From IMG/VR virus record IMGVR_UViG_3300033076_001485, positions 1 to 64,000 of that record: a DNA stretch of 64,000 bases. The stretch is one strand, 5' to 3'. The notes under the pieces were generated by a model that ran no database searches, was not told where the DNA came from, and was given only the letters and a program-made list of their open reading frames with translations. Origin of the DNA: a virus. Taxonomy: Duplodnaviria; Caudoviricetes. The position numbers and the translations under genes were made by a program. Shown here piece after piece: positions 1-18,742 of this stretch (positions are counted from its first letter, which is position 1; each line of letters begins with the position of its first letter).

Positions 1-990
1 CACTCAGACTTCTTTAAGAACAACAGGACATTTAGAGACACAGATGCGATAAATGTATCACGTCGCTTTAGAAGCGCAAGACAGCGGATTCAGAGCTACA
101 TTGAAGATCCTACTATTGGAATTGATAAAGTTGAAGATTTAATTGATTCATGTCATGCAATCCAGTATCAAATTGATCGTCGTGGCAGAATGAGAAAGTC
201 TGAAAAAGATTTAAGACTTGACTATATCAATCGCATTAAGAATGATAAAGACGGAAAGTATAAGAATTTTAATATTGATAAACTGCCTCTTGAGCCAGAA
301 TTTGATGTCATGCTTTTTATTGCTGAAAATTGCAAAAATCTTGAAAATTGGGAAAGAGATATTATCAATATTGTGCATGAAGAATCTCTTTATTTCATGC
401 CTCAAATTCGTACAAAGATCATGAACGAGGGATGGGCAAGTTTCTGGCATTATAGAATCTGTCATGAACTAGAATTACCTGATAGTCTTCATATTCCTTT
501 TATGAAATCACATAATCAAGTTCTTCGTCCATGGGGTGGAAGAATTAATCCTTATCACCTAGGTTTTGAGATCTTTAAGAGAATTGAAGAAACAAAAGGT
601 ATTGAGGAATGCTTCTTTGCAAGAGAAATTCATAATGATGAATCATTTATCATGGAACATCTGAAAGAAGATCAAGCAAGAGAGCTTAATATGTTCACTT
701 ACAGTCCAAAGGGTAGAAAAAATCCTGATTGGTCTGTTGATGACGTAGTTGATGAAGAGGGATGGCCAGAAATTAGATCTGCACTCTTGAAATCAATTGG
801 TGGTAATGGAATACCCATTATTTATGTTGAAGAAGTTATCAAAGATACATTGATTTTGAGACACGAACATGATGGACGTGATCTTGAATTAAGTTATGCA
901 GAAAATTGTGTCAAACACATTGCCAAGATGTGGAAAGGCCCAGTAAAATTATTTACGCTACTCGAAGGCGATCATTTCGAAATTTCTTGA
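1..990 (+). CDS. spoVR: SpoVR/YcgB family protein (5'-truncated by window edge)
   Basis: Frame is open from base 1 (HSDFFKNNRTF...), not just from the ATG at 190. Contains SpoVR motifs HxDFFKNN, YFMPQIRTKIMNEGWASFWH, NPYHLGF and LRHEHDGRDL. Confidence 0.92.
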   Translation, partial: HSDFFKNNRTFRDTDAINVSRRFRSARQRIQSYIEDPTIGIDKVEDLIDSCHAIQYQIDRRGRMRKSEKDLRLDYINRIKNDKDGKYKNFNIDKLPLEPEFDVMLFIAENCKNLENWERDIINIVHEESLYFMPQIRTKIMNEGWASFWHYRICHELELPDSLHIPFMKSHNQVLRPWGGRINPYHLGFEIFKRIEETKGIEECFFAREIHNDESFIMEHLKEDQARELNMFTYSPKGRKNPDWSVDDVVDEEGWPEIRSALLKSIGGNGIPIIYVEEVIKDTLILRHEHDGRDLELSYAENCVKHIAKMWKGPVKLFTLLEGDHFEIS

Positions 991-1001
991 TAGGAGAGAA
1001 A

Positions 1002-2927
1002 ATGGACTTTCTAAAAATCATTCAAAAGCAGAGAGCAGGCGGTCAGAAAGAGTCATGGAATGGAACATTTCTCGACTATTTGGCTGTCATTAAAAAGAAT
1101 CCAGAGCATGTGAAGCTTGCTCACAAGCGCATCACAGATGCGATTGAGTCACATGGCGTTGCACCAATGGAGGATTCTGATCCTCGTTGCCGTAAACTCT
1201 TTGACGGTGACAAGCTAAAGACATACAATTATTTCAAAGATGAGTTCTATGGTCATGAGCGTGTCATTGCTAAGATTATGAGATTCTTAAAGTCAGCATC
1301 TTTGAAGGGCGAGGAGAGTCGCCAGGTTCTCCTACTTATGGGTCCTGTAGGATCGGGCAAGTCAGCACTTGCAGATGCAGTTAAGAAGTCACTTGAGAAA
1401 TCTGCAGAGGCAATTTATCATCTTGAAGGCTGCCCTGTTCGTGAAGAACCACTTCACCTTCTTCCACGCTCTCTTCGTGACCAATTTGAGAATCTTCTTG
1501 GCGTTCATATCGAAGGTGACCTCTGTCCAGTATGTCGTCACAGACTTCTCAATGAGTTCGGTGGTGAGTATGAGAAGTTCCCTGTAGTTCGAAGTGGATT
1601 CTCTCAGCGTGGTCGTCGCGGTATTGCTGTTGTCCCACCGATGGATGCAAACTCCCAGGACGTTTCAGCACTTATCGGCTCTGAGGACATCTCAAAGCTT
1701 GATAAGTACAGTGAGTCTGATCCTCGCGTTCTTAACCTAGATGGCGCATTCAATGTGGGTAACCGCGGCGTTGTAGAGTTTGTTGAGATCTTTAAGAACG
1801 AGATCGAGTTCCTTCACACAATTCTCACTGCAACACAGGAGAAGAACGTTCCTTCACCTGGTAAGAACGGAATGCTCTACTTCGATGGTGTCATTCTCTC
1901 TCACTGTAATGAGGCTGAGTGGAATCGCTTCAAGTCTGAGCACACCAACGAGGCAGTTCTTGACCGTATCGTAAAGATCGAGGTTCCATACGTTCTCGAG
2001 CTTAACCAGGAGATCAAGATCTACGAGAAGATGCTTCGTCGTTCTGATTTCAAGGCACATCTTGCACCTCACACCATCAAAGTTGCAGCAATGTTCTCAG
2101 TCATGAGCCGACTCAAGCCTTCACAGAAGGTCGATCTCATGACCAAGATGAAGATCTACAATGGTGAGGAAGTCATTGAGAAGGGTAAAGTTCGCAAGGT
2201 TGATATCAAGGACCTCCGTGAAGAAGTTCGTCACGAGGGCATGGACGGAATCTCAACCCGCTTTATTACAAAGGCTATTGACTCTGCATTGACTGACTCT
2301 GATAAGAGCTTTATCACACCCATGCGCGTGATTGATGCCCTTGTTAAGCAGGTCAAGGAGCAGGTTGTTGATGAAGAGAAGCGTAAGGCATATCTTGAGC
2401 TTCTCCAGAAGGTTATTCGCGAGGAGTACCTGAAGATGCTTGAGAGCGAGATTGCCAAGGCCTTCGTCACCGCATACGAGGAGCAGGCACAATCACTCTT
2501 TGATAACTACATGGACAATGCAGAAGCCTTCACAACCAAGCAGAAGATGAAGGATCGTGTTACTTCTGAGGAGCGTGAGCCCGATGAGAAGTTCATGAAG
2601 GCAATCGAGGAACAGATCGGCATTGTCGGCTCAGCTCGCGATGGATTCCGTTCAGACGTAACAGCATACATGTTTACCAAGATGCGCCGTGGCCAGAAGG
2701 TTGATTACAAGTCTTACGAGCCACTCAAGGAAGCAATCGAGAGCTACCTCATCGCTTCAGTGAAGGACATGGCACGCATCGTTACCAAGTCTAAGAGCCG
2801 TGATGGTGAGCAACAGAAGAAGTACTCTGACATGGTCGAGACAATGGTTCGTGATTACGGTTACACACCTGAGTCCGCTGAAGAGACAATTATGTTTGCT
2901 GCTAATAACTTGTGGCGTGACAGCTGA
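1002..2927 (+). CDS. prkA: PrkA/YeaG family AAA+ serine protein kinase
   Basis: Walker A GPVGSGKS, plus CPVREEPLHL, EGDLCPVC, NRGVVEFVEIFK, NEAVLDRI and EGMDGISTRF. Start moved from 906 to the ATG at 1002, which follows AGGAGAG. Confidence 0.93.
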   Translation: MDFLKIIQKQRAGGQKESWNGTFLDYLAVIKKNPEHVKLAHKRITDAIESHGVAPMEDSDPRCRKLFDGDKLKTYNYFKDEFYGHERVIAKIMRFLKSASLKGEESRQVLLLMGPVGSGKSALADAVKKSLEKSAEAIYHLEGCPVREEPLHLLPRSLRDQFENLLGVHIEGDLCPVCRHRLLNEFGGEYEKFPVVRSGFSQRGRRGIAVVPPMDANSQDVSALIGSEDISKLDKYSESDPRVLNLDGAFNVGNRGVVEFVEIFKNEIEFLHTILTATQEKNVPSPGKNGMLYFDGVILSHCNEAEWNRFKSEHTNEAVLDRIVKIEVPYVLELNQEIKIYEKMLRRSDFKAHLAPHTIKVAAMFSVMSRLKPSQKVDLMTKMKIYNGEEVIEKGKVRKVDIKDLREEVRHEGMDGISTRFITKAIDSALTDSDKSFITPMRVIDALVKQVKEQVVDEEKRKAYLELLQKVIREEYLKMLESEIAKAFVTAYEEQAQSLFDNYMDNAEAFTTKQKMKDRVTSEEREPDEKFMKAIEEQIGIVGSARDGFRSDVTAYMFTKMRRGQKVDYKSYEPLKEAIESYLIASVKDMARIVTKSKSRDGEQQKKYSDMVETMVRDYGYTPESAEETIMFAANNLWRDS

Positions 2928-11883: not shown

Positions 11884-14800
11884 ATGGCCCTTATAGGAAC
11901 AATTTCGGGAAGTGTCGGCACAGGAGGATCTTTAGTATCTTCTACGGCAATATCAGGTACCCTTATCATCGCAGATGCACCACCATCGAGCTTTCCAACT
12001 CTAGCATCTGGTGTCAAACTTTTCGTTTCAGGCGCAAAGAGTGCTATCGGTGCTGACGCTCCTGCCGCAATCTTTGGTGGTGACACATTTATCTCTGGAG
12101 CATTTGGTACCGACAGCTACATCCAGATGAAGCCCGTCAACACACTCCGGGTCCCGACGAACACGACTGCAAGCTACATCTACACCTCCGGAAGTACGAA
12201 TGACATGTACTTCACACAGTACGCAGGACCCTACACGAACACGACACGACTCCGTTGGCTGGAGTCTGTGGTCGGAACAGGTCTCCTTACCGGCGGTGTT
12301 CTCAGCACAGCACCAGGTTCTACTACGTTCAGTATGACTGCCGGTGAGGGTCTGGTCGTCACGCAGAACGCCTCCACATCTGAAGCTCCGTATCCGACGA
12401 TCTATCACGCCGTCTGGAATAGCGTTGTAAGCCGCTCCTTGGACTACATTAGCACTGCGCAGATCACCTACATCGGAATCGACGGATCTAGCCAGATCGT
12501 CCAGAGGACTACGCCCATCAGCCTCACCGAGGACTCGGCAATCATCCCGGTCGGAAGAATCCTCCACACCACGGGCTCCGTCACCTCTGCCGCCGTCATG
12601 AACCCGACGGTCTCATACGGTGCCTTCCAGTACCTCAATGACTTCGCAAGGGCAATCGGTCCCCTGAAGGTCACCGGTCACGTCCTCGCAGCATCTGGCT
12701 CAACTTTGGGCATCACGAGATCTGCGGGATCATCGTTCGTCCTTGGAAAGAACTACACACTCGATCCCAACAACCCGAACATTATCCCAGCCTCCAGCGA
12801 TCCTGCCACAGTCACCAGCAAGGTCTGGCGCCAGTACATCAACTCTTCAGGAAATCTCGTCATCGACTCTGGTGTCGGTGGCGCAGGTTACGTGGGAATC
12901 GATCCGAACAACTACGTCAATGCTGGTGTCCTGACTGCCGTCCCACCCAACAAGTACACTATCCAGCGTGCCTTCTGGTTCCCGAACTCGGTGACCAACG
13001 CTGTCAACGTTTGCTACGGTAGCACGATCTACAACTCCCTCAGCGCTGCTGTTTCTGCTGTTTCCACAGAATCATTCACGGAGGGTGCCAACACTCAGGA
13101 TGCCGCGATCTTCCTCGGTTACATCTGTGTGAAGGCGGGCACCACAGACCTCTCTAACACCTCGGACGCTGCTTTCATCCAGTCGGGCATCTTCAGGAAT
13201 GTGTCAGGTGGAGGAGGAGGCGGTGGGTCGACAGTTCCAGGAGATGGAGACACTTCTGTACAATTTAATGATGGCGGGTTCTTCAATGGAACGCAAGATT
13301 TTAGGTTTCTGAAGAGCACAGCTACAGCAATCGTCGGAAACATGGTCGTCACCGGGACGAACACATCGATGGTGAGCTCCGGTTCCATCCAGGTGAAGGA
13401 TGTCACAGGTAACGTTGTTGTCAACCTCACGAATACAGGAAACGTCACGGGTTCGAACCTTCTCCTGACCAGCGGATTCGTCGTCACCGGTAGCGGGATC
13501 ATCGAGTCGAACACATCAACATCGGCCCTCAGAGTGACGCAGCAAGGAACTGGAAATGCGATCCTGGTCGAGGATAGCGTGAATCCCGACTCGACACCGT
13601 TTGTGGTCGCTGCAGACGGAAAGGTTGGAATCGGTACGCTGGCATCATCCGCGAACCTCTTTGTGTCTGGTACCGATCCAAACATACCTGCTTTTGTCGC
13701 GAAAGGTGCCGACGTTACGGTGAACACGCTCACCGTTACAGGATCGGCCGGTGCCTCCACAGCGGTTGGTTTCGTCAACATCGATCAGGGTAACTACTCG
13801 AATAAGTACGGCCTCATGATCACGAACATCGGCGCCGGAACTGCGGGTCTTAAGCTTCGAGCTAATACAACTGGAGGCAGCTTCGCGATCGACAATATGA
13901 ACACGACGCCACAGATCACGATGACTCACAAGAACCTCTGGTTCAGATCTGACTCTACAGCAGCCGATACTTCACAGGTCACTTACAAGTTCATCGAGAA
14001 TAATAAAGTTGCAACATACCCGAACCAGAAAACTTTCCTCATCAGCGGTGAAATAACTGGACCTACGACCGGTAGTTACTTCGAGGTTGAGAAATCTGGA
14101 AGTGCAGGGTCTATCAAGCTTTTGGAGCTGCAGGGAGACACGACCGACAACGCGCTGTACGTCTCGGGTGCAATTCTAGCAACAGGAAGCATCTTTACCG
14201 CCGGAGATCTTGCTGTAAACGGCGGTGACATCACAACCACGTCGACGACTTTCAACCTGATCACAGGCTCGGCAACAACAGTCAATTTCGCCCAGACTGC
14301 GAATAGTCTGAACATTGGAAAGCTGACGGGTAATGTTGTCATTTCGAGCACAATCACAGGCTCATCTCCCGCCTTGTTCGGGGACACAGTCACTATCGGC
14401 GGCCCATCGCAGTCAACCCTCAACTCATCCCAGACGACTGCGAACATATTCAACACCACGGCCACAACAGTCAACATGGGTGGCGCAGCAACGACTATCA
14501 ACCTGGGGTCATCTCTAGGTCGAACGTTCATGAACGGAAATGCTTCTATCTCTGGAAGCCTTACGGTGACCGGCAGTGTCGCGGTCAACGGAGGTAATAT
14601 CACCTCTACAGCAGCATCGTTCAACATTGCAAACACGACACCGACAACAGTTACGATCGGAGATAATGCAGCGAACTTATATCTCGGTAAATCAGGTACG
14701 AACAGAGTTTTCATCCAAGGAAATCTTTTACTGAATAATAATGAGATTCAAGCATCTGGAGGTGGAACAGCACTAACATTCCCCGCAGGAAACACAAGTG

Positions 14801-15585
14801 CACTGTTTGCTGCAAATGTTACTGTGACAGGAGATGTTGCAGTCAACGGCGGAGATTTAACGACAACGTCAACATCTTTCAATCTTCTCAATGGAACTGC
14901 GACCTCTATAGCATTCGGAGGTGCAGCCGCCTCCATGAAGATTGCATCGGGCAGCGGGACAAACGTCGAGATAGGATCCTCATCAGGAAGAACTACCATC
15001 TACAACGATCTTGTTCTGGGAACAGGTAACATTCTCGTGACTAACGATGCTACTCCGATGTCGCTTATTTCAAGTGGAAATGTTGTCGCGAAGCTTGACG
15101 TCAATAACAACGGTACAGGACACAGGTTCGACATACAGGATTGGCGTGGAATCAGCCAGTTCTTCGTGGGCGAAGACGGTAATGCCGAGCTTTCTGGAAG
15201 TCTTGTCGTCAGCGGTACTACTAACATAGGGACGACCGTAGAACGCCTGTTAACAACCGTAAGCTCAACAGGCACTGTCACTTTTGATACAACATTCAGC
15301 AGCATCTTTTATGTCAACGGACCCGCAGGTGATATAACTGCTAACTTTACGAACGTGCCGACTACAAGTAATAACAGAGTAATTACACCTACGGTAATTC
15401 TGTCACAGAGCGCAACACCGCGAGTTATTAATGCCGTCCAAGTAAACAGTGCAGCGACCCCCATACTTTGGGCAAATAAGTTGACACCTGTCGGTACTGC
15501 AAATCAACAAGATGTGTATGGATTCAGTTTAATTCGTTCTGGTTCGATCTGGACAGTACTCGGCCAGATGAGTACTTACGGATGA
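11884..15585 (+). CDS. Long mosaic fibre / receptor-binding-type protein 3
   Basis: 1233 aa, G/S/T-rich; repeated GDxAVNGGDxTTT modules shared with fibre 2; SVQFNDGG module; C-terminal DVYGFSLIRSGSIWTVLG beta domain. Confidence 0.75.
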   Translation: MALIGTISGSVGTGGSLVSSTAISGTLIIADAPPSSFPTLASGVKLFVSGAKSAIGADAPAAIFGGDTFISGAFGTDSYIQMKPVNTLRVPTNTTASYIYTSGSTNDMYFTQYAGPYTNTTRLRWLESVVGTGLLTGGVLSTAPGSTTFSMTAGEGLVVTQNASTSEAPYPTIYHAVWNSVVSRSLDYISTAQITYIGIDGSSQIVQRTTPISLTEDSAIIPVGRILHTTGSVTSAAVMNPTVSYGAFQYLNDFARAIGPLKVTGHVLAASGSTLGITRSAGSSFVLGKNYTLDPNNPNIIPASSDPATVTSKVWRQYINSSGNLVIDSGVGGAGYVGIDPNNYVNAGVLTAVPPNKYTIQRAFWFPNSVTNAVNVCYGSTIYNSLSAAVSAVSTESFTEGANTQDAAIFLGYICVKAGTTDLSNTSDAAFIQSGIFRNVSGGGGGGGSTVPGDGDTSVQFNDGGFFNGTQDFRFLKSTATAIVGNMVVTGTNTSMVSSGSIQVKDVTGNVVVNLTNTGNVTGSNLLLTSGFVVTGSGIIESNTSTSALRVTQQGTGNAILVEDSVNPDSTPFVVAADGKVGIGTLASSANLFVSGTDPNIPAFVAKGADVTVNTLTVTGSAGASTAVGFVNIDQGNYSNKYGLMITNIGAGTAGLKLRANTTGGSFAIDNMNTTPQITMTHKNLWFRSDSTAADTSQVTYKFIENNKVATYPNQKTFLISGEITGPTTGSYFEVEKSGSAGSIKLLELQGDTTDNALYVSGAILATGSIFTAGDLAVNGGDITTTSTTFNLITGSATTVNFAQTANSLNIGKLTGNVVISSTITGSSPALFGDTVTIGGPSQSTLNSSQTTANIFNTTATTVNMGGAATTINLGSSLGRTFMNGNASISGSLTVTGSVAVNGGNITSTAASFNIANTTPTTVTIGDNAANLYLGKSGTNRVFIQGNLLLNNNEIQASGGGTALTFPAGNTSALFAANVTVTGDVAVNGGDLTTTSTSFNLLNGTATSIAFGGAAASMKIASGSGTNVEIGSSSGRTTIYNDLVLGTGNILVTNDATPMSLISSGNVVAKLDVNNNGTGHRFDIQDWRGISQFFVGEDGNAELSGSLVVSGTTNIGTTVERLLTTVSSTGTVTFDTTFSSIFYVNGPAGDITANFTNVPTTSNNRVITPTVILSQSATPRVINAVQVNSAATPILWANKLTPVGTANQQDVYGFSLIRSGSIWTVLGQMSTYG

Positions 15586-15589
15586 TAAA

Positions 15590-16642
15590 ATGCTAAGTAG
15601 AACTTCTTCATTTGCAGGCTCCCTTGCACCACGTAACGTGACCAACCAAACATTTCGATACTACAGATTTTCTGTCACAAAGGTCCGTGATAGTACAGCT
15701 GACGGTCCTAATTGGCCAGTTGGAATGATGCAGATGACTGAGTTCATTCTCACATTCATGGGAACAAGGGTTGATTACACGGGCGCCACGGCCACAAACC
15801 CGAACGGCTACAATCCTTCTGGACAGGGACCAAGCTCCGGGATCGACAACAACACATCAACTGTTTTTCTTGATCAATCAGGTAATGGTACGGTTTTAGG
15901 TGCGCCCACGGGCGCAATAAAATCCTGGGTTCTCAAGATTGATTTCGGGTCAAGACGTACTGTCGATGGATTTAGGTATACAACTGGAGCCGATGTCCAG
16001 GGCAGAGATCCTGTTCAGTGGGTCCTTGAAGGTAGCAATGATGATTCTTCATGGTCAACTATACATGTCCAGTCATCTGATGCATCAATTACAACTAGTA
16101 GAACTACACAGACACAAATTTTCTACATCACACGAGGACTTAAACCGTATATCGCTGGTCTCTTTAGGTCAACATACACAGGTTACATGGGTTCTCTTAC
16201 AGATGCAAATGATAATGTTAACTTTTTTGACGGAGCGACACCTATAGCCACAGATGTTCAGACTACTGTCATCCAGGATCCCGCAACTGATGATGGAACC
16301 GACTTTAGTCGTCAATGGTTAGGCTATTTTGTCCCGACAACAACAGAGACCTACACATTCTATTTGAAGTCTGACGATTGCTCTTGGATGTGGATAGGCA
16401 GTAACGCTGTCTCAGGTTACACACGCGCAAATGCCACGGTAAACAATGGTGGGCTCCACGGATTTGTCGAGACTTCGGGAACAGCGGCTCTTACAGCAGG
16501 TGTCTACTATCCCATCAGGATCCAATACGGAGAGCATCAGGTTGCTGACCAGATGGACTTCAACTACTCAACTGCGACAATCACGAAGACCACAGACGTC
16601 ACGGGTAAGGTCTTCTATCACCCAGCGACAAAGGGATTCTAA
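15590..16642 (+). CDS. Discoidin/F5-8-like plus PA14/GLEYA carbohydrate-binding virion protein
   Basis: FRYYRF...RDPVQWVLEGSNDDSSWS (discoidin-like) and WLGYFVPTTTETYTFYLKSDDCSWMWI...LTAGVYYPIRIQYGE (PA14). Confidence 0.75.
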   Translation: MLSRTSSFAGSLAPRNVTNQTFRYYRFSVTKVRDSTADGPNWPVGMMQMTEFILTFMGTRVDYTGATATNPNGYNPSGQGPSSGIDNNTSTVFLDQSGNGTVLGAPTGAIKSWVLKIDFGSRRTVDGFRYTTGADVQGRDPVQWVLEGSNDDSSWSTIHVQSSDASITTSRTTQTQIFYITRGLKPYIAGLFRSTYTGYMGSLTDANDNVNFFDGATPIATDVQTTVIQDPATDDGTDFSRQWLGYFVPTTTETYTFYLKSDDCSWMWIGSNAVSGYTRANATVNNGGLHGFVETSGTAALTAGVYYPIRIQYGEHQVADQMDFNYSTATITKTTDVTGKVFYHPATKGF

Positions 16643-16843
16643 ATGATCAAAGAGCTTCTAAAGGACGAAGAAGGCCAGTCCACTGTCGAGTACATGCTGC
16701 TGATCAGCGTCATTGTCATCGCCATCGTGGCTGCTGCCTACGTGTTCATCGAGCCCTTCAAGCAGGGCGTCCAGGACCTCGGGAAGGACGTGAAGAAGAT
16801 CCTCTCTGATGGTAAGATAGGAAGAGTAGGAACGACACGTTAA
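16643..16843 (+). CDS. Flp/Tad-type pilin-like protein with class III signal peptide
   Basis: KDEEG|QSTVEY (Glu+5, Tyr+6) followed by the hydrophobic helix MLLISVIVIAIVAAAYVFI and an amphipathic tail; 66 aa. Confidence 0.85.
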   Translation: MIKELLKDEEGQSTVEYMLLISVIVIAIVAAAYVFIEPFKQGVQDLGKDVKKILSDGKIGRVGTTR

Positions 16844-16873
16844 CTGTTTAATGCACAGAATTAAAATCTGTGT

Positions 16874-18742
16874 ATGAACAAACAAATTATCTTCGTTGCT
16901 GATCTTTTTGCTGAGCAGTATGCCGGTGGTGCAGAATTAACTTCTGAGGCACTGATTGAATCTTCTCCTGATCTTGTCAAGAAAGTTCATGCCAGAAATC
17001 TAACAATTGAATTTTTGCAAGAAAATGCAGATGCATTCTGGATTTTTGGAAATTTCTCAACAATTAATTGGTCACTAATACCAGTTATTGCGTCAAATCT
17101 TCGGTATGCTGTTCTTGAATATGATTATAAATTTTGTCTACATAGATCAATAGAGAAACACTTACACGAAACCGGGCAGGAATGCGATTGTCATAAAAGA
17201 CAATTAGGACAACTTGTTTCTGGATTTTATCAAGCAGCAGATGCAATTTTCTGGATGTCTGATGCACAACGTCTTCGGTATATTGAAAGATTTCCATCAT
17301 TACTAAATCATCGAAATTCAATTGTTTTAAGCTCTGTGTTCGACCAGCAATTCTTTAATAAAATTGACGCAGTTAAAGAAGAAAATAATGAGAGAACGGA
17401 CTGGGTTGTTCTAGGCTCACAGTCATGGATCAAAGGATTTGATGCCGCAGTTAAATGGTGTGAGGACAATGGTAAGAAATTCCAAAGTTACTGGGATGTG
17501 CCTTATGATGAGATGTTAAATACATTTGCAAGATCTGCGGGCTTTGTTTATCTTCCAAAAGGTGGGGATACATGCCCAAGGATGGTTATTGAAGCAAAAC
17601 TTTTGGGTTGCGAAGTCGTCACAAACGAAAATGTCCAGCATACCTCCGAAAAATGGTGGCAGGGAACACCAGACGAGGTCTGTGATTACTTGAAGGGACG
17701 TCCTGATGTGTTCTGGGACACAATAAATCGTGTGATCCAGCAGCAACCGACGCTGTCTGGTTACAGTACGACTTATAATTGTGTCGAACAAGAATATCCA
17801 TTTGTTGAATCAATTTGCTCATTACTTGATGTCTGTGATGAAGTAGTCGTTGTTGATGGTGGATCTTCTGACGGTACTTGGGATGTATTAACTGAGATGG
17901 CAGCAGACAACCCTAAATTAAAAATTAAGCAGATTGAGCGTGATTGGAATCACCCACGGCATGCTGTATTTGATGGTATGCAAAAAGCTGCTGCAAGAGA
18001 TCTTTGCACAGGTGACTTTTGCTGGCAGCAAGATGTGGATGAAATCATCCACGAAAATGATTACCAGAAGATTAGAAATTTACTTACAACAATTCCAAAA
18101 AGTGTCAATTTAGTTGCCCTACCCGTCACAGAATTCTGGGGTAATAAGGGAAAAATTAGAATTGATATTAATCCATGGAAGTGGCGTCTAAGCAGAAATC
18201 ACCCGTCGATTACACATGGAATACCTGCAAATCTTCGTCGACAAGATGAAAATGGAGACACTTACTCTCTACAGGGATCAGATGGATGTGACTATGTGAC
18301 AAGAGAAACAGGTGAATTTGTGCCATTTGTTAATTTTCATAATCAACAAACAGAGCAATTGCGCCAAATGTCAATGAGAGATCCTGCCGCAAGAAACCAG
18401 TATGTGAGCTGGCTTAGTTCTGTTACACAAAATTTACCAGGTGTTTACCACTATTCATGGTTTAATCTTCCTCGCAAGATTAAGACTTACAAAAATTATT
18501 GGACAAGGCACTGGCAAAGCATGTACAATATTAATCAAGAAGATACACCAGAAAATAATATGTTTTTTGATAAAAAATGGTCTGATGTATCTGATCAAGA
18601 AATTGATGAAATTTCATCTCGTCTAGAGCGAGAAATGGGTGGTTGGATCTTTCATAGAAAGATTGATTGGAACAATCCCACACCAAGTGTTACAATTGAG
18701 AATATAACTCATCCTGAGATTATGAGAGATTTCATTTTATGA
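16874..18742 (+). CDS. Two-domain glycosyltransferase (GT-B-like N-terminus, GT2/GT-A C-terminus)
   Basis: N-terminal half has FVYLPKGGDTCPRMVIEAKLLGC; C-terminal half has DEVVVVDGGSSDGT and QQDVDE. Confidence 0.8.
   Translation: MNKQIIFVADLFAEQYAGGAELTSEALIESSPDLVKKVHARNLTIEFLQENADAFWIFGNFSTINWSLIPVIASNLRYAVLEYDYKFCLHRSIEKHLHETGQECDCHKRQLGQLVSGFYQAADAIFWMSDAQRLRYIERFPSLLNHRNSIVLSSVFDQQFFNKIDAVKEENNERTDWVVLGSQSWIKGFDAAVKWCEDNGKKFQSYWDVPYDEMLNTFARSAGFVYLPKGGDTCPRMVIEAKLLGCEVVTNENVQHTSEKWWQGTPDEVCDYLKGRPDVFWDTINRVIQQQPTLSGYSTTYNCVEQEYPFVESICSLLDVCDEVVVVDGGSSDGTWDVLTEMAADNPKLKIKQIERDWNHPRHAVFDGMQKAAARDLCTGDFCWQQDVDEIIHENDYQKIRNLLTTIPKSVNLVALPVTEFWGNKGKIRIDINPWKWRLSRNHPSITHGIPANLRRQDENGDTYSLQGSDGCDYVTRETGEFVPFVNFHNQQTEQLRQMSMRDPAARNQYVSWLSSVTQNLPGVYHYSWFNLPRKIKTYKNYWTRHWQSMYNINQEDTPENNMFFDKKWSDVSDQEIDEISSRLEREMGGWIFHRKIDWNNPTPSVTIENITHPEIMRDFIL

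What the first reader, a model, noticed from the sequence alone, without database searches (positions are those of the whole stretch)
16643..16843. Phage-encoded Flp/Tad pilin directly after the receptor-binding genes
Seen: a complete prepilin (G|QSTVEY plus hydrophobic helix) starting at the base after the PA14 gene stop, GC-rich, with no other tad genes or prepilin peptidase in the window. Established: Tad/type IV pili are phage receptors, and known phage pilus inhibitors mostly target the assembly ATPase. Inference: a decoy pilin processed by the host peptidase that poisons or re-coats the pilus (superinfection exclusion, or preventing progeny adsorbing to lysed-cell pili), or alters host adhesion or predation. 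Pili built from it could also be substrates for the adjacent GT cluster.
Basis: partly seen in the sequence, partly recalled or inferred. Interest (0 to 1): 0.8.

Follow-up and report, generated by a model that had tools for sequence, protein, structure and literature searches.

The report
Giant phage carries host-type Flp pilin
A large uncultured phage carries an intact, very strongly conserved copy of the small Tad-pilus subunit (Flp pilin) of freshwater myxobacteria but none of the assembly machinery, which points to its likely host and suggests that it feeds its own subunit into the host's pilus machine.

Summary
Its GC3 is 0.70, against 0.21-0.30 for native genes. No prepilin peptidase or Tad ATPase was found in the 123-kb record.

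- **Family:** it belongs to a divergent Flp subfamily, below Pfam thresholds. Cellular members head canonical tad operons. The closest ones (73-86% identity) are orphan genes, mostly sigma-54-driven, at one syntenic chromosomal site in about 70%-GC freshwater Myxococcota MAGs.
- **Origin:** all phage copies form one clade nested among these orphans, so the gene passed from host to phage.
- **Spread and selection:** copies occur in many uncultured phage contigs (33-57% GC) in at least four gene contexts. In some they sit beside a CglF/GltF-like gliding gene. Synonymous sites are saturated but proteins stay 85-98% identical (dN/dS 0.01-0.05), tighter than among host orthologues.
- **Likely function:** every processing and assembly determinant is intact. 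An assembly-competent subunit expressed under phage control is therefore more likely than a crippled "poison". The biological payoff is untested.
- **GT cluster:** the link to the adjacent glycosyltransferases is not supported.

No paper describing this was found. This scan has already met the same gene family on other phage DNA.

The parts
16643..16843 (+). Flp-type prepilin gene (66 aa plus stop). Codons 1-11 are the leader, and the mature pilin is 55 aa.
   Evidence: ORF and translation; homologues; invariant G11, Q12, E16, Y17; purifying selection; AF2 all-helical model, H14-34 and H36-55, pLDDT 81.
16673..16693 (+). Predicted prepilin-peptidase processing motif G11|QSTVEY17, with cleavage after Gly11.
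   Evidence: Sequence. G11, Q12, E16 and Y17 are invariant across family alignment A2. All seven positions are 100% conserved in 14 phage and 14 host orphan copies. Cleavage itself is inferred, not shown.
16631..16636 (+). Shine-Dalgarno-like AAGGGA, 6 nt before the ATG and inside the end of the PA14 gene.
   Evidence: Read from the sequence. No promoter-like or terminator-like site lies between the PA14 gene and the pilin, so co-transcription with the fibre genes is inferred.
15590..16642 (+). Upstream receptor-binding-type gene (350 aa) with F5/8 type C and PA14/GLEYA lectin domains. Its stop abuts the pilin ATG.
   Evidence: Pfam GLEYA 7e-20, PA14 5e-14. The same PA14-pilin junction is found in L101, L105-L108 and L006.
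11884..15585 (+). Tail-fibre gene (1233 aa). Its body carries the start of the GC3-rich imported cassette, from about 12,100.
   Evidence: phrog_4527 short tail fibre. GC3 is 0.55-0.72 from about 12,184, against 0.21-0.36 in the preceding fibre gene. The island ends at the pilin stop.
16840..16873 (+). Promoter-like site (TTAACT-16-TAAAAT) inside a stable hairpin just before the GT622 start. It probably starts the next transcription unit.
   Evidence: promoter-like site at 16840-16867. (hairpin at 16845-16880, -14 kcal/mol, z = -3.9).
16874..18742 (+). First gene of the glycosyltransferase cluster (622 aa, GT2 domain). It is a neighbour, not shown to be functionally linked to the pilin.
   Evidence: Pfam Glycos_transf_2. 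It is adjacent to the pilin only in the five closest relatives. 24 more distant phage loci have the GT without the pilin.

Best explanation
The gene encodes an authentic, assembly-competent Flp (Tad, type IVc) prepilin.

**Origin.** Phages captured it once from the stand-alone flp gene of planktonic freshwater Myxococcota, which in the host is mostly sigma-54-regulated. It has since moved among large uncultured phages.

**Position in this phage.** It is the last gene of a GC3-rich, imported host-recognition cassette (fibre body, PA14 lectin protein, pilin). It is probably transcribed late with the fibre genes and is uncoupled from the host's sigma-54 control.

**Inferred steps.** The 66-aa product inserts into the inner membrane. 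A host A24 prepilin peptidase cleaves it after Gly11. The host's own Tad machine, probably the homologue of the myxobacterial Kil apparatus, takes it up. Its filament-core helix is identical to the host's, so it can co-polymerise with host pilin or replace it. Pili then carry the phage's fixed surface variant, or the pilin supply continues after host shut-off.

**Likely payoff.** The probable benefit is control of the pilus as a receptor or adhesion/predation organelle during infection, through receptor alteration, superinfection exclusion or sustained attachment.

**Shown:** the identity, origin, spread and selection of the gene. **Inferred:** processing, assembly and payoff.
For: **Pilin anatomy.** The leader, G|QSTVEY motif, hydrophobic helix and all-helical model match an Flp pilin.

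**Family context.**
- A 57%-identical cellular member heads an operon of pilin, Peptidase_A24, pilin paralogue, RcpC, secretin, T2SSE ATPase and T2SSF.
- About 20 other loci show the same arrangement.

**Closest cellular relatives.**
- They are 73-86% identical and lie at one syntenic site (aldehyde dehydrogenase, pilin, metallophosphoesterase, near ligA and rho) in 64-73% GC Myxococcota/'Deltaproteobacteria' lake MAGs.
- Five such genomes were tested, and each has at least two A24 peptidases.

**Tree.** 15 phage copies plus cellular L029 form one clade (support 96/97). This clade sits inside the orphan group (96/86).

**Selection.**
- dN/dS is 0.014-0.045 where dS is finite.
- Phage-phage median pS is 0.83 with pN 0.067. 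Host-host pS is 0.34 with pN 0.139.
- Positions 11-27 and 29-32 are identical in phage and host copies.

**Regulation.** 14 of 18 host orphans have TGGCAC-N5-TTGC 43-72 nt upstream. None of the 8 phage copies examined has it.

**Second host-type gene.** In related phages the pilin sits beside a CglF/GltF-like gene (NF033764, E 7e-17). The same MAG genomes hold 56-66%-identical copies of it.

**Precedent.** In Myxococcus xanthus the major pilin KilP of the predatory Kil Tad pilus is likewise an orphan gene away from the machinery (PMC12075869).
Against: - No experiment bears on processing, assembly or phenotype.
- The host is inferred only from gene ancestry. The phage is 38% GC (relatives 33-57%) and the donor lineage about 70% GC, an unusually large gap.
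- No tRNA genes were found in the 123 kb held, so tRNAs there do not offset the codon mismatch.
- Pfam Flp_Fap and related models score below threshold. There is no PDB match by sequence or fold.
- Intact assembly determinants do not exclude a dominant-negative effect from the fixed C-terminal differences at positions 36-38, 47-48, 56 and 61-62.
- The record is only about 39% complete, so machinery genes could lie in the missing part.
Confidence: 0.55

Rival explanations
1. Dominant-negative ('poison') pilin. The phage subunit is processed and enters the platform, but its fixed C-terminal variant stalls or caps polymerisation. Tad pili are removed from infected cells, which gives superinfection exclusion and stops progeny adsorbing to debris.
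For: - The phage clade has fixed differences from the host majority at exposed positions: I-E/D-P at 36-38, G47, K48, D56, R61 and V62.
- The gene sits with receptor-binding genes.
- From general knowledge, known phage strategies against type IV pili are inhibitory (Tip, Aqs1, PfsE).
Against: - The 'phage-type' residues also occur in cellular pilins. L029 and L031 sit at the syntenic site, and the pilin that heads the tad operon has I-D-P-F.
- All residues known to be needed for processing and assembly are kept.
- Known inhibitors target the ATPase or platform, and none of them is a pilin.
Confidence: 0.2
2. Signal mimic. The inner-membrane pool of phage pilin is read by the host's pilin-sensing regulatory circuit. 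The host gene is sigma-54/enhancer-binding-protein dependent. The phage pilin thereby reprogrammes host pilin expression, surface behaviour or the cell cycle, and its assembly into filaments is irrelevant.
For: - Host orphan pilins carry textbook sigma-54 promoters, and the phage copies have lost them.
- From general knowledge, membrane pilin pools act as signals in other bacteria (PilS-PilR in Pseudomonas, PilA in Caulobacter).
- Conservation of the whole mature sequence fits recognition by a host sensor.
Against: - No sensor has been identified here.
- The idea rests on analogy only.
- It does not explain the repeated linkage to fibre genes.
Confidence: 0.1
3. The small membrane protein has been co-opted for a phage-intrinsic role, such as a holin/antiholin-like lysis timer or a membrane anchor or assembly factor for the adjacent fibre/PA14 protein. 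It has nothing to do with pili.
For: - It has one transmembrane helix and a basic C-terminal tail, as in class III holins.
- Its start abuts the stop of the PA14 gene, which suggests translational coupling.
- It ends a late structural operon.
Against: - The G|Q..EY motif and the leader's acidic EEG are strictly kept, as in host orphans.
- The gene also occurs far from structural genes, among small early-type genes (L002).
- There is no PHROG match.
- The pairing with a second host envelope gene (CglF-like) points to host machines.
Confidence: 0.07
4. Passenger DNA. The gene is neutral cargo that hitch-hikes with a mobile fibre cassette or with the HNH endonuclease gene next to it in some phages.
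For: - GC3 0.70 marks it as part of an imported cassette.
- An HNH gene is adjacent in L002, L103 and L109.
Against: - Synonymous sites are saturated while proteins stay 85-98% identical.
- In AT-rich phages the gene has been recoded to 34-38% GC with the protein preserved.
- No disrupted copies were seen in 17 viral contigs.
Confidence: 0.03

Closest known systems
Flp/Fap major pilins of Tad (type IVc) pili (Pfam PF04964; e.g. Caulobacter PilA, Aggregatibacter Flp1)
   Same: - A short prepilin with a short leader, a G/XXXXEY processing motif and a hydrophobic N-terminal helix.
- An all-helical predicted fold.
- Cellular homologues encoded at the head of tad operons with an A24 peptidase, RcpC/CpaB, a secretin, a CpaF-type ATPase and TadB/C.
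   Different: - It scores below the Pfam gathering threshold (13.9 against 32.2 bits).
- It belongs to a distinct Myxococcota subfamily with a conserved GKIG..GT.R tail.
- It is encoded by a lytic-type giant phage with no assembly genes.
KilP (mxan_5121), the orphan major pilin of the Myxococcus xanthus Kil (Tad-like) predation pilus (PMC12075869)
   Same: - Both belong to the same phylum-level setting, and both are orphan Flp genes far from the machinery genes.
- According to the paper, KilP is conserved among the Myxococcales and is not processed by the Tad-linked peptidase KilA.
- The MAG Tad ATPase has its best Myxococcus match (60% identity) directly after a secretin gene, as expected for kil cluster I.
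   Different: - There is no real sequence similarity beyond the processing motif (BLASTP E 0.022 over 15 residues).
- KilP is longer (85-97 aa) and has a different C-terminal half.
- Orthology of the host orphan pilin with KilP is therefore not shown.
Phage-encoded inhibitors of type IV pili used for superinfection exclusion (Tip of D3112, Aqs1 of DMS3, PfsE of Pf4; recalled from general knowledge, not tested here)
   Same: A phage gene that acts on a host pilus system, which may be the phage receptor.
   Different: Those inhibitors are unrelated small proteins that bind the ATPase PilB or the platform protein PilC. Here the phage carries the structural subunit itself, apparently intact.
Host-derived 'auxiliary' genes for high-turnover host components, such as cyanophage psbA (general knowledge)
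   Same: A host gene captured by lytic phages, recoded to phage composition, kept under strong purifying selection and expressed under phage control.
   Different: The product is a surface-organelle subunit, not a metabolic enzyme. The benefit to the phage is unknown.

Membership tests
Flp/Fap pilin (Tad, type IVc major pilin) | Short prepilin of about 50-80 residues | tested here: met
   66 aa, with a predicted mature form of 55 aa.
Flp/Fap pilin (Tad, type IVc major pilin) | Leader followed by the G/XXXXEY processing motif | tested here: met
   G11|QSTVEY17. G11, Q12, E16 and Y17 are invariant in family alignment A2 and 100% conserved in phage and host copies.
Flp/Fap pilin (Tad, type IVc major pilin) | Hydrophobic alpha-1N helix and an all-alpha fold | tested here: met
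   AF2 model with helices 14-34 and 36-55, mean pLDDT 81 and 96-98 over residues 21-50. This is a prediction only. There is no PDB match by Foldseek or sequence.
Flp/Fap pilin (Tad, type IVc major pilin) | Match to the curated family model above threshold (PF04964) | tested here: not met
   13.9 bits against a cut-off of 32.2. PF16982 scores 17.5 against 33.5, PF04021 17.1 against 23.7 and PF14029 16.1 against 27. NCBIfam gives no hit.
Flp/Fap pilin (Tad, type IVc major pilin) | Homologues encoded with Tad machinery (A24 peptidase, CpaB/RcpC, secretin, CpaF/TadA, TadB/C) | tested here: met
   Met for cellular relatives. P0130 (57% identity) heads such an operon in L092/L093, and about 20 further loci are similar. 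Not met for the phage itself.
Flp/Fap pilin (Tad, type IVc major pilin) | Cleavage by a prepilin peptidase and polymerisation into a pilus | not testable with these tools
   This needs expression, mass spectrometry and pilus labelling.
KilP-type major pilin of the myxobacterial Kil system | Sequence homology to KilP (mxan_5121) | tested here: not met
   The KilP orthologue was fetched through the published primer (L153:2355-2609). BLASTP gives E 0.022 over 15 residues of the motif only.
KilP-type major pilin of the myxobacterial Kil system | Orphan flp gene away from the Tad/Kil machinery in a Myxococcota genome | tested here: met
   The closest cellular relatives are orphans at a conserved core-chromosome site. 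This shows likeness of arrangement, not membership.

The most novel reading that the evidence does not exclude
Lytic giant phages of planktonic, possibly predatory, Myxococcota take over two host surface machines by supplying their own structural subunits. One is the major-type Flp pilin of a Kil-like Tad pilus. The other, in sister phages, is the GltF/CglF subunit of the gliding motor. Infected cells would then keep or change their pilus-dependent behaviour (prey contact, adhesion, receptor display) under phage control. That would be a 'structural-subunit hijack' distinct from all known pilus-inhibitor strategies.
Probability: 0.3. Interest if true: 0.8.

Novelty: new variant of a known kind. 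Interest (0 to 1): 0.62.

Why it matters
- **Host prediction.** The gene gives a concrete, testable host (Tad-piliated freshwater Myxococcota) for a widespread group of uncultured large phages. Their base composition (33-57% GC) would never have suggested a host of about 70% GC.
- **A different way to manipulate pili.** Phages are known to manipulate type IV pili with small inhibitors. A phage that carries the pilus subunit itself, kept more tightly than the host keeps its own copy, would be a different mode of surface-organelle manipulation.
- **Possible ecological reach.** If the host's Tad system is the counterpart of the myxobacterial Kil predation pilus, these phages could change predator-prey interactions in lakes.
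- **Reference marker.** The family is also a clean marker for finding such phages in metagenomes.

Tried and rejected
- tblastn of the pilin and megablast of 9-21 kb against 50,697 deposited phage genomes found nothing. PHROGs has no family for it.
- PDB sequence search with the family profile and Foldseek with the model found nothing. A two-helix protein is a poor fold query.
- The search for related loci with the alignment failed because no stretch was conserved enough. It was rerun with the single protein. That scan uses exact peptide patterns, so it favours close relatives.
- PrkA was tried as a second host marker and was uninformative. It is 55-59% identical to many phyla. The one 81% hit lies on a 14-kb 'Luteolibacter' MAG contig that is probably a mis-binned phage.
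- KilP orthology was rejected on sequence.
- GTDB family and genus names are not reported for genomes reached through loci. The taxonomy here therefore rests on NCBI record titles, several of which are plainly wrong (65-73% GC 'Klebsiella/Enterobacterales' bins).
- A holin or virion role, and neutral hitch-hiking, were considered and given low weight (see rivals).
- Literature searches for phage-encoded Flp pilins found no description.

Full report
**1. The observation**

window:16643-16843(+) is an intact ORF of 66 codons. The product has an 11-residue leader ending in acidic D-E-E-G. It continues with Q-S-T-V-E-Y, a 19-residue hydrophobic stretch and a charged tail.

The ATG follows the TAA of the upstream gene (15590-16642) without a gap. 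An AAGGGA motif lies 6 nt upstream of the ATG. The upstream gene carries F5/8-type-C and PA14/GLEYA lectin domains. Before it lie two fibre genes with weak short-tail-fibre matches, and after it a cluster of glycosyltransferases.

No promoter-like or terminator-like site separates the PA14 gene from the pilin. A promoter-like site inside a stable hairpin (z = -3.9) follows the pilin stop, just before the first GT gene. The pilin therefore looks like the last gene of the fibre transcription unit. This is an inference.

The window is part of an IMG/VR virus record of 123,469 bp, which CheckV estimates to be 39% complete. Its baseplate wedge protein is only about 31% identical to those of Flavobacterium phage immuto, Microcystis phage Mel-JY01 and a 484-kb uncultured phage. 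The record has no Peptidase_A24 match, no real T2SSE match and no second pilin. No tRNA gene was found in it.

**2. Composition**

The pilin has 52% GC and GC3 0.70, while native genes of the window have GC3 0.21-0.30. GC3 rises inside the 1233-aa fibre gene at about 12.1-12.2 kb, to 0.55-0.72. It is lower through most of the PA14 gene, rises again in that gene's last 150 nt (0.61) and in the pilin (0.70), and drops to 0.23 at the first GT gene. The pilin is thus the terminal gene of an imported, mosaic host-recognition cassette. This agrees with an earlier first-reader note on this window (e1-5841312), which I re-measured.

**3. What family it is**

- **Curated models miss it.** Pfam gives only sub-threshold hits (Flp1_like, Class_IIIsignal, DUF4244, Flp_Fap). 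NCBIfam and PHROGs give none.
- **A full-database phmmer search finds a family.** It finds 278 clusters at 50% identity with E <= 1e-3. G11, Q12, E16 and Y17 are invariant in a 16-member alignment.
- **The model is all-helical.** AF2 on that alignment gives helices 14-34 and 36-55, with pLDDT 96-98 over residues 21-50. This is what is expected of Flp pilins (PMC12075869).
- **Genomic context is the decisive evidence.** A 57%-identical cellular member (P0130) is the first gene of an operon: pilin, small ORF, Peptidase_A24, pilin paralogue, RcpC, secretin, T2SSE ATPase, T2SSF. About 20 other cellular loci have the same arrangement.

By anatomy and by the company its cellular relatives keep, this is a divergent Flp subfamily.

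**4. Where it came from**

A scan of 185,579 species genomes found 77 loci. All lie in MAGs of 49-75% GC (most 64-73%). They are titled Myxococcota, Deltaproteobacteria or unclassified proteobacteria, and the isolate names point to lakes and rivers. Some are obviously mislabelled 'Klebsiella/Enterobacterales' bins.

The closest loci (73-86% identical) are not in tad operons. They are stand-alone genes at one conserved chromosomal site: aldehyde dehydrogenase, pilin, metallophosphoesterase, with ligA, rho and murJ nearby. Fourteen of 18 such genes have a textbook sigma-54 promoter (TGGCAC-N5-TTGC) 43-72 nt upstream. None of eight phage copies examined has one. The lead for this check came from earlier notes e1-3577419 and e1-4762087.

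The five donor-type genomes tested each hold at least two A24 peptidases.

In a maximum-likelihood tree, the 15 distinct phage proteins plus one cellular sequence (L029) form one clade with support 96/97. Its sister is cellular L031, and next comes a clade of 16 orphan cellular pilins (98/95). L029 and L031 both sit at the syntenic chromosomal site. The direction of transfer is therefore host to phage, from this orthologue group. The protein is short, so deeper branches are unresolved.

**5. Spread and selection in phages**

- **Many near-identical copies.** The 5.8-billion-protein collection gave 580 hits, and the best 120 are 91-98% identical. JGI names some of them 'Flp pilus assembly pilin Flp'.
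- **Long phage-like contigs carry it.** These include a 310-kb contig (35% GC) and 53-89-kb contigs (56% GC). They have T4-type RNA ligase, DNA ligase, topoisomerase II, ClpP and an aminoacyl-tRNA synthetase.
- **IMG/VR holds 17 further contigs** of 37-57% GC.
- **There are four contexts**:
  - (a) fibre, PA14, pilin, GT622 (this window, L101, L106-L108; L104 and L114 are variants of this arrangement);
  - (b) fibre, LamG, PA14, pilin, CglF-like (L006/L102);
  - (c) CglF-like, pilin, HNH (L002, L103, L109);
  - (d) CglF-like upstream in other backgrounds (L112, L115-L117).
- **It is an accessory gene.** Among phages related through GT622, only the five closest (at least 79% identical) have the pilin at the junction, and 24 more distant loci do not. 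The gene travels with the host-recognition module and is not a core gene.
- **Selection is very strong.** dN/dS is 0.014-0.045 where dS is finite. Synonymous sites are saturated between AT-rich and GC-richer versions (gene GC 34-56%) while proteins stay 85-98% identical.
- **Phage copies are kept more tightly than host copies.** Median pN/pS is 0.086 among 14 phage genes and 0.43 among 14 host orthologues. Compositional shifts inflate pS, so the contrast is qualitative.
- **The filament-core region is unchanged.** Positions 11-27 and 29-32 (motif and filament-core helix) are identical in phage and host. The phage clade is fixed at positions that vary among hosts (36-38, 47-48, 56, 61-62). The 'phage' states also occur in cellular pilins (L029, L031, the operon-heading P0130).

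**6. A second host-type gene**

In many related phages the pilin's neighbour is a 78-82-aa secreted protein. It matches NCBIfam NF033764, 'adventurous gliding motility protein CglF' (E 7e-17, below the equivalog cut-off). The same five MAG genomes hold 56-66%-identical copies. The 123 kb of this record has none.

Two small envelope-machine subunits of myxobacterial type in one phage group strengthen the host inference. Earlier reports of this scan on other DNA (e1-5410907, e1-5939783, e1-5726898, e1-5406819) reached the same reading. I derived it here before consulting them.

**7. Relation to the Kil system**

In M. xanthus the major pilin KilP of the predatory Kil Tad pilus is an orphan Flp gene. 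It is not processed by the Tad-linked peptidase KilA (PMC12075869).

I fetched a KilP orthologue through the published primer. It shares only the processing motif with the phage pilin (E 0.022). The phage pilin is therefore not a KilP family member.

The MAG-type Tad ATPase has its best Myxococcus match (60% identity) directly downstream of a secretin gene, as expected for kil cluster I. It is plausible, but not shown, that the host's Tad system is the Kil counterpart.

**8. Mechanism**

Best supported (0.55): an assembly-competent subunit is expressed under phage control. Late expression is inferred for this window. A host A24 peptidase processes it at Gly11, and the host Tad machine takes it up, where it co-polymerises with host pilin or replaces it. 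Identity, origin, spread and selection are shown. Processing, assembly and benefit are inferred.

Rivals:
- dominant-negative pilin for superinfection exclusion (0.2);
- mimic of the membrane pilin pool acting on a sigma-54-linked sensing circuit (0.1);
- phage-intrinsic membrane role (0.07);
- neutral passenger (0.03, effectively refuted by selection).

**9. Caveats**

- Host assignment rests on gene ancestry alone, and the GC gap (38% against about 70%) is large. A recent preprint links phages of 46-60% GC to Myxococcota by CRISPR (10.64898/2026.09.14.751636), so some discordance has precedent.
- MAG taxonomy rests on record titles.
- The source habitat of this particular record was not established. 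The cellular relatives come from MAGs whose isolate names point to lakes and rivers.

**10. Novelty**

No paper describing phage-borne Flp pilins was found. Deposited phage genomes and PHROGs lack the family. The protein is a new member of the Flp kind. A lytic-type phage carrying the pilus subunit itself, without machinery, is a new variant among phage strategies aimed at type IV filaments.

Noticed in passing
L002:9753-10001 (+); L006:10219-10455 (+); also L103, L109, L112, L115-L117: A 78-82-aa secreted protein adjacent to the pilin in many related phages matches NCBIfam NF033764 (gliding motility protein CglF/GltF, E 7e-17, below the cut-off). It is 56-66% identical to genes in the same Myxococcota MAGs. 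It was not found in the 123 kb of this record.
   Followed up: partly
L014, L015, L016, L017, L019-L022, L024, L027, L028, L033, L036, L041 (upstream of the pilin start): 14 of 18 cellular orphan pilin genes have a textbook sigma-54 promoter (TGGCAC-N5-TTGC) 43-72 nt upstream of the start codon. None of the phage copies examined has one.
   Followed up: yes
window 12100-16843: A GC3-rich island (0.55-0.72, against 0.21-0.30 in native genes) begins inside the 1233-aa fibre gene and ends exactly at the pilin stop. It looks like an imported, mosaic host-recognition cassette.
   Followed up: yes
window 16840-16880: A promoter-like TTAACT-16-TAAAAT lies inside a stable hairpin (-14 kcal/mol, z = -3.9) immediately before the GT622 start codon. 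It recalls the 'promoter in a hairpin' pattern noted elsewhere in this genome.
   Followed up: partly
L002:10233-10601; L103:7341-7700; L109:6226-6585: An HNH endonuclease gene lies directly or closely downstream of the pilin in the AT-rich phage lineage. It may be a mobility element for the CglF-pilin pair.
   Followed up: no
P0187, P0220, P0223, P0253, P0266 (cellular proteins of 285-373 aa): Some cellular family members fuse the Flp-like N-terminus, through a Gly/Pro-rich linker, to a C-terminal globular domain. By eye this domain resembles a C39-like cysteine peptidase. These could be pilin-anchored enzymes. This was not scanned against any domain library.
   Followed up: no
L092:10921-11160 and equivalents in about 20 tad loci: The tad operons carry a second pilin paralogue after the A24 peptidase gene. 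Operon-linked pilins have basic leaders (R-R/K/S-G|Q). Orphan and phage pilins have acidic ones (D/E-E-E-G|Q), which hints at different peptidase specificities.
   Followed up: partly
L020, L021, L027, L030, L032 and many 'binchicken' TPA assemblies: MAGs titled Klebsiella pneumoniae, Enterobacteriaceae or Enterobacterales have 64-73% GC and carry myxobacterial-type pilin and tad genes. The record taxonomy is evidently wrong.
   Followed up: no
L136 (CAZMUK010000072.1, 14-kb contig in a 'Luteolibacter' MAG): It holds a PrkA gene 81% identical to the phage's PrkA (window 906-2927). All other cellular hits are 55-59% identical. It is probably a phage contig binned into a bacterial MAG.
   Followed up: no
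G000, whole 123,469-bp record: ARAGORN finds no tRNA or tmRNA gene. This is notable for a large phage whose codon usage differs so much from that of its putative host.
   Followed up: partly
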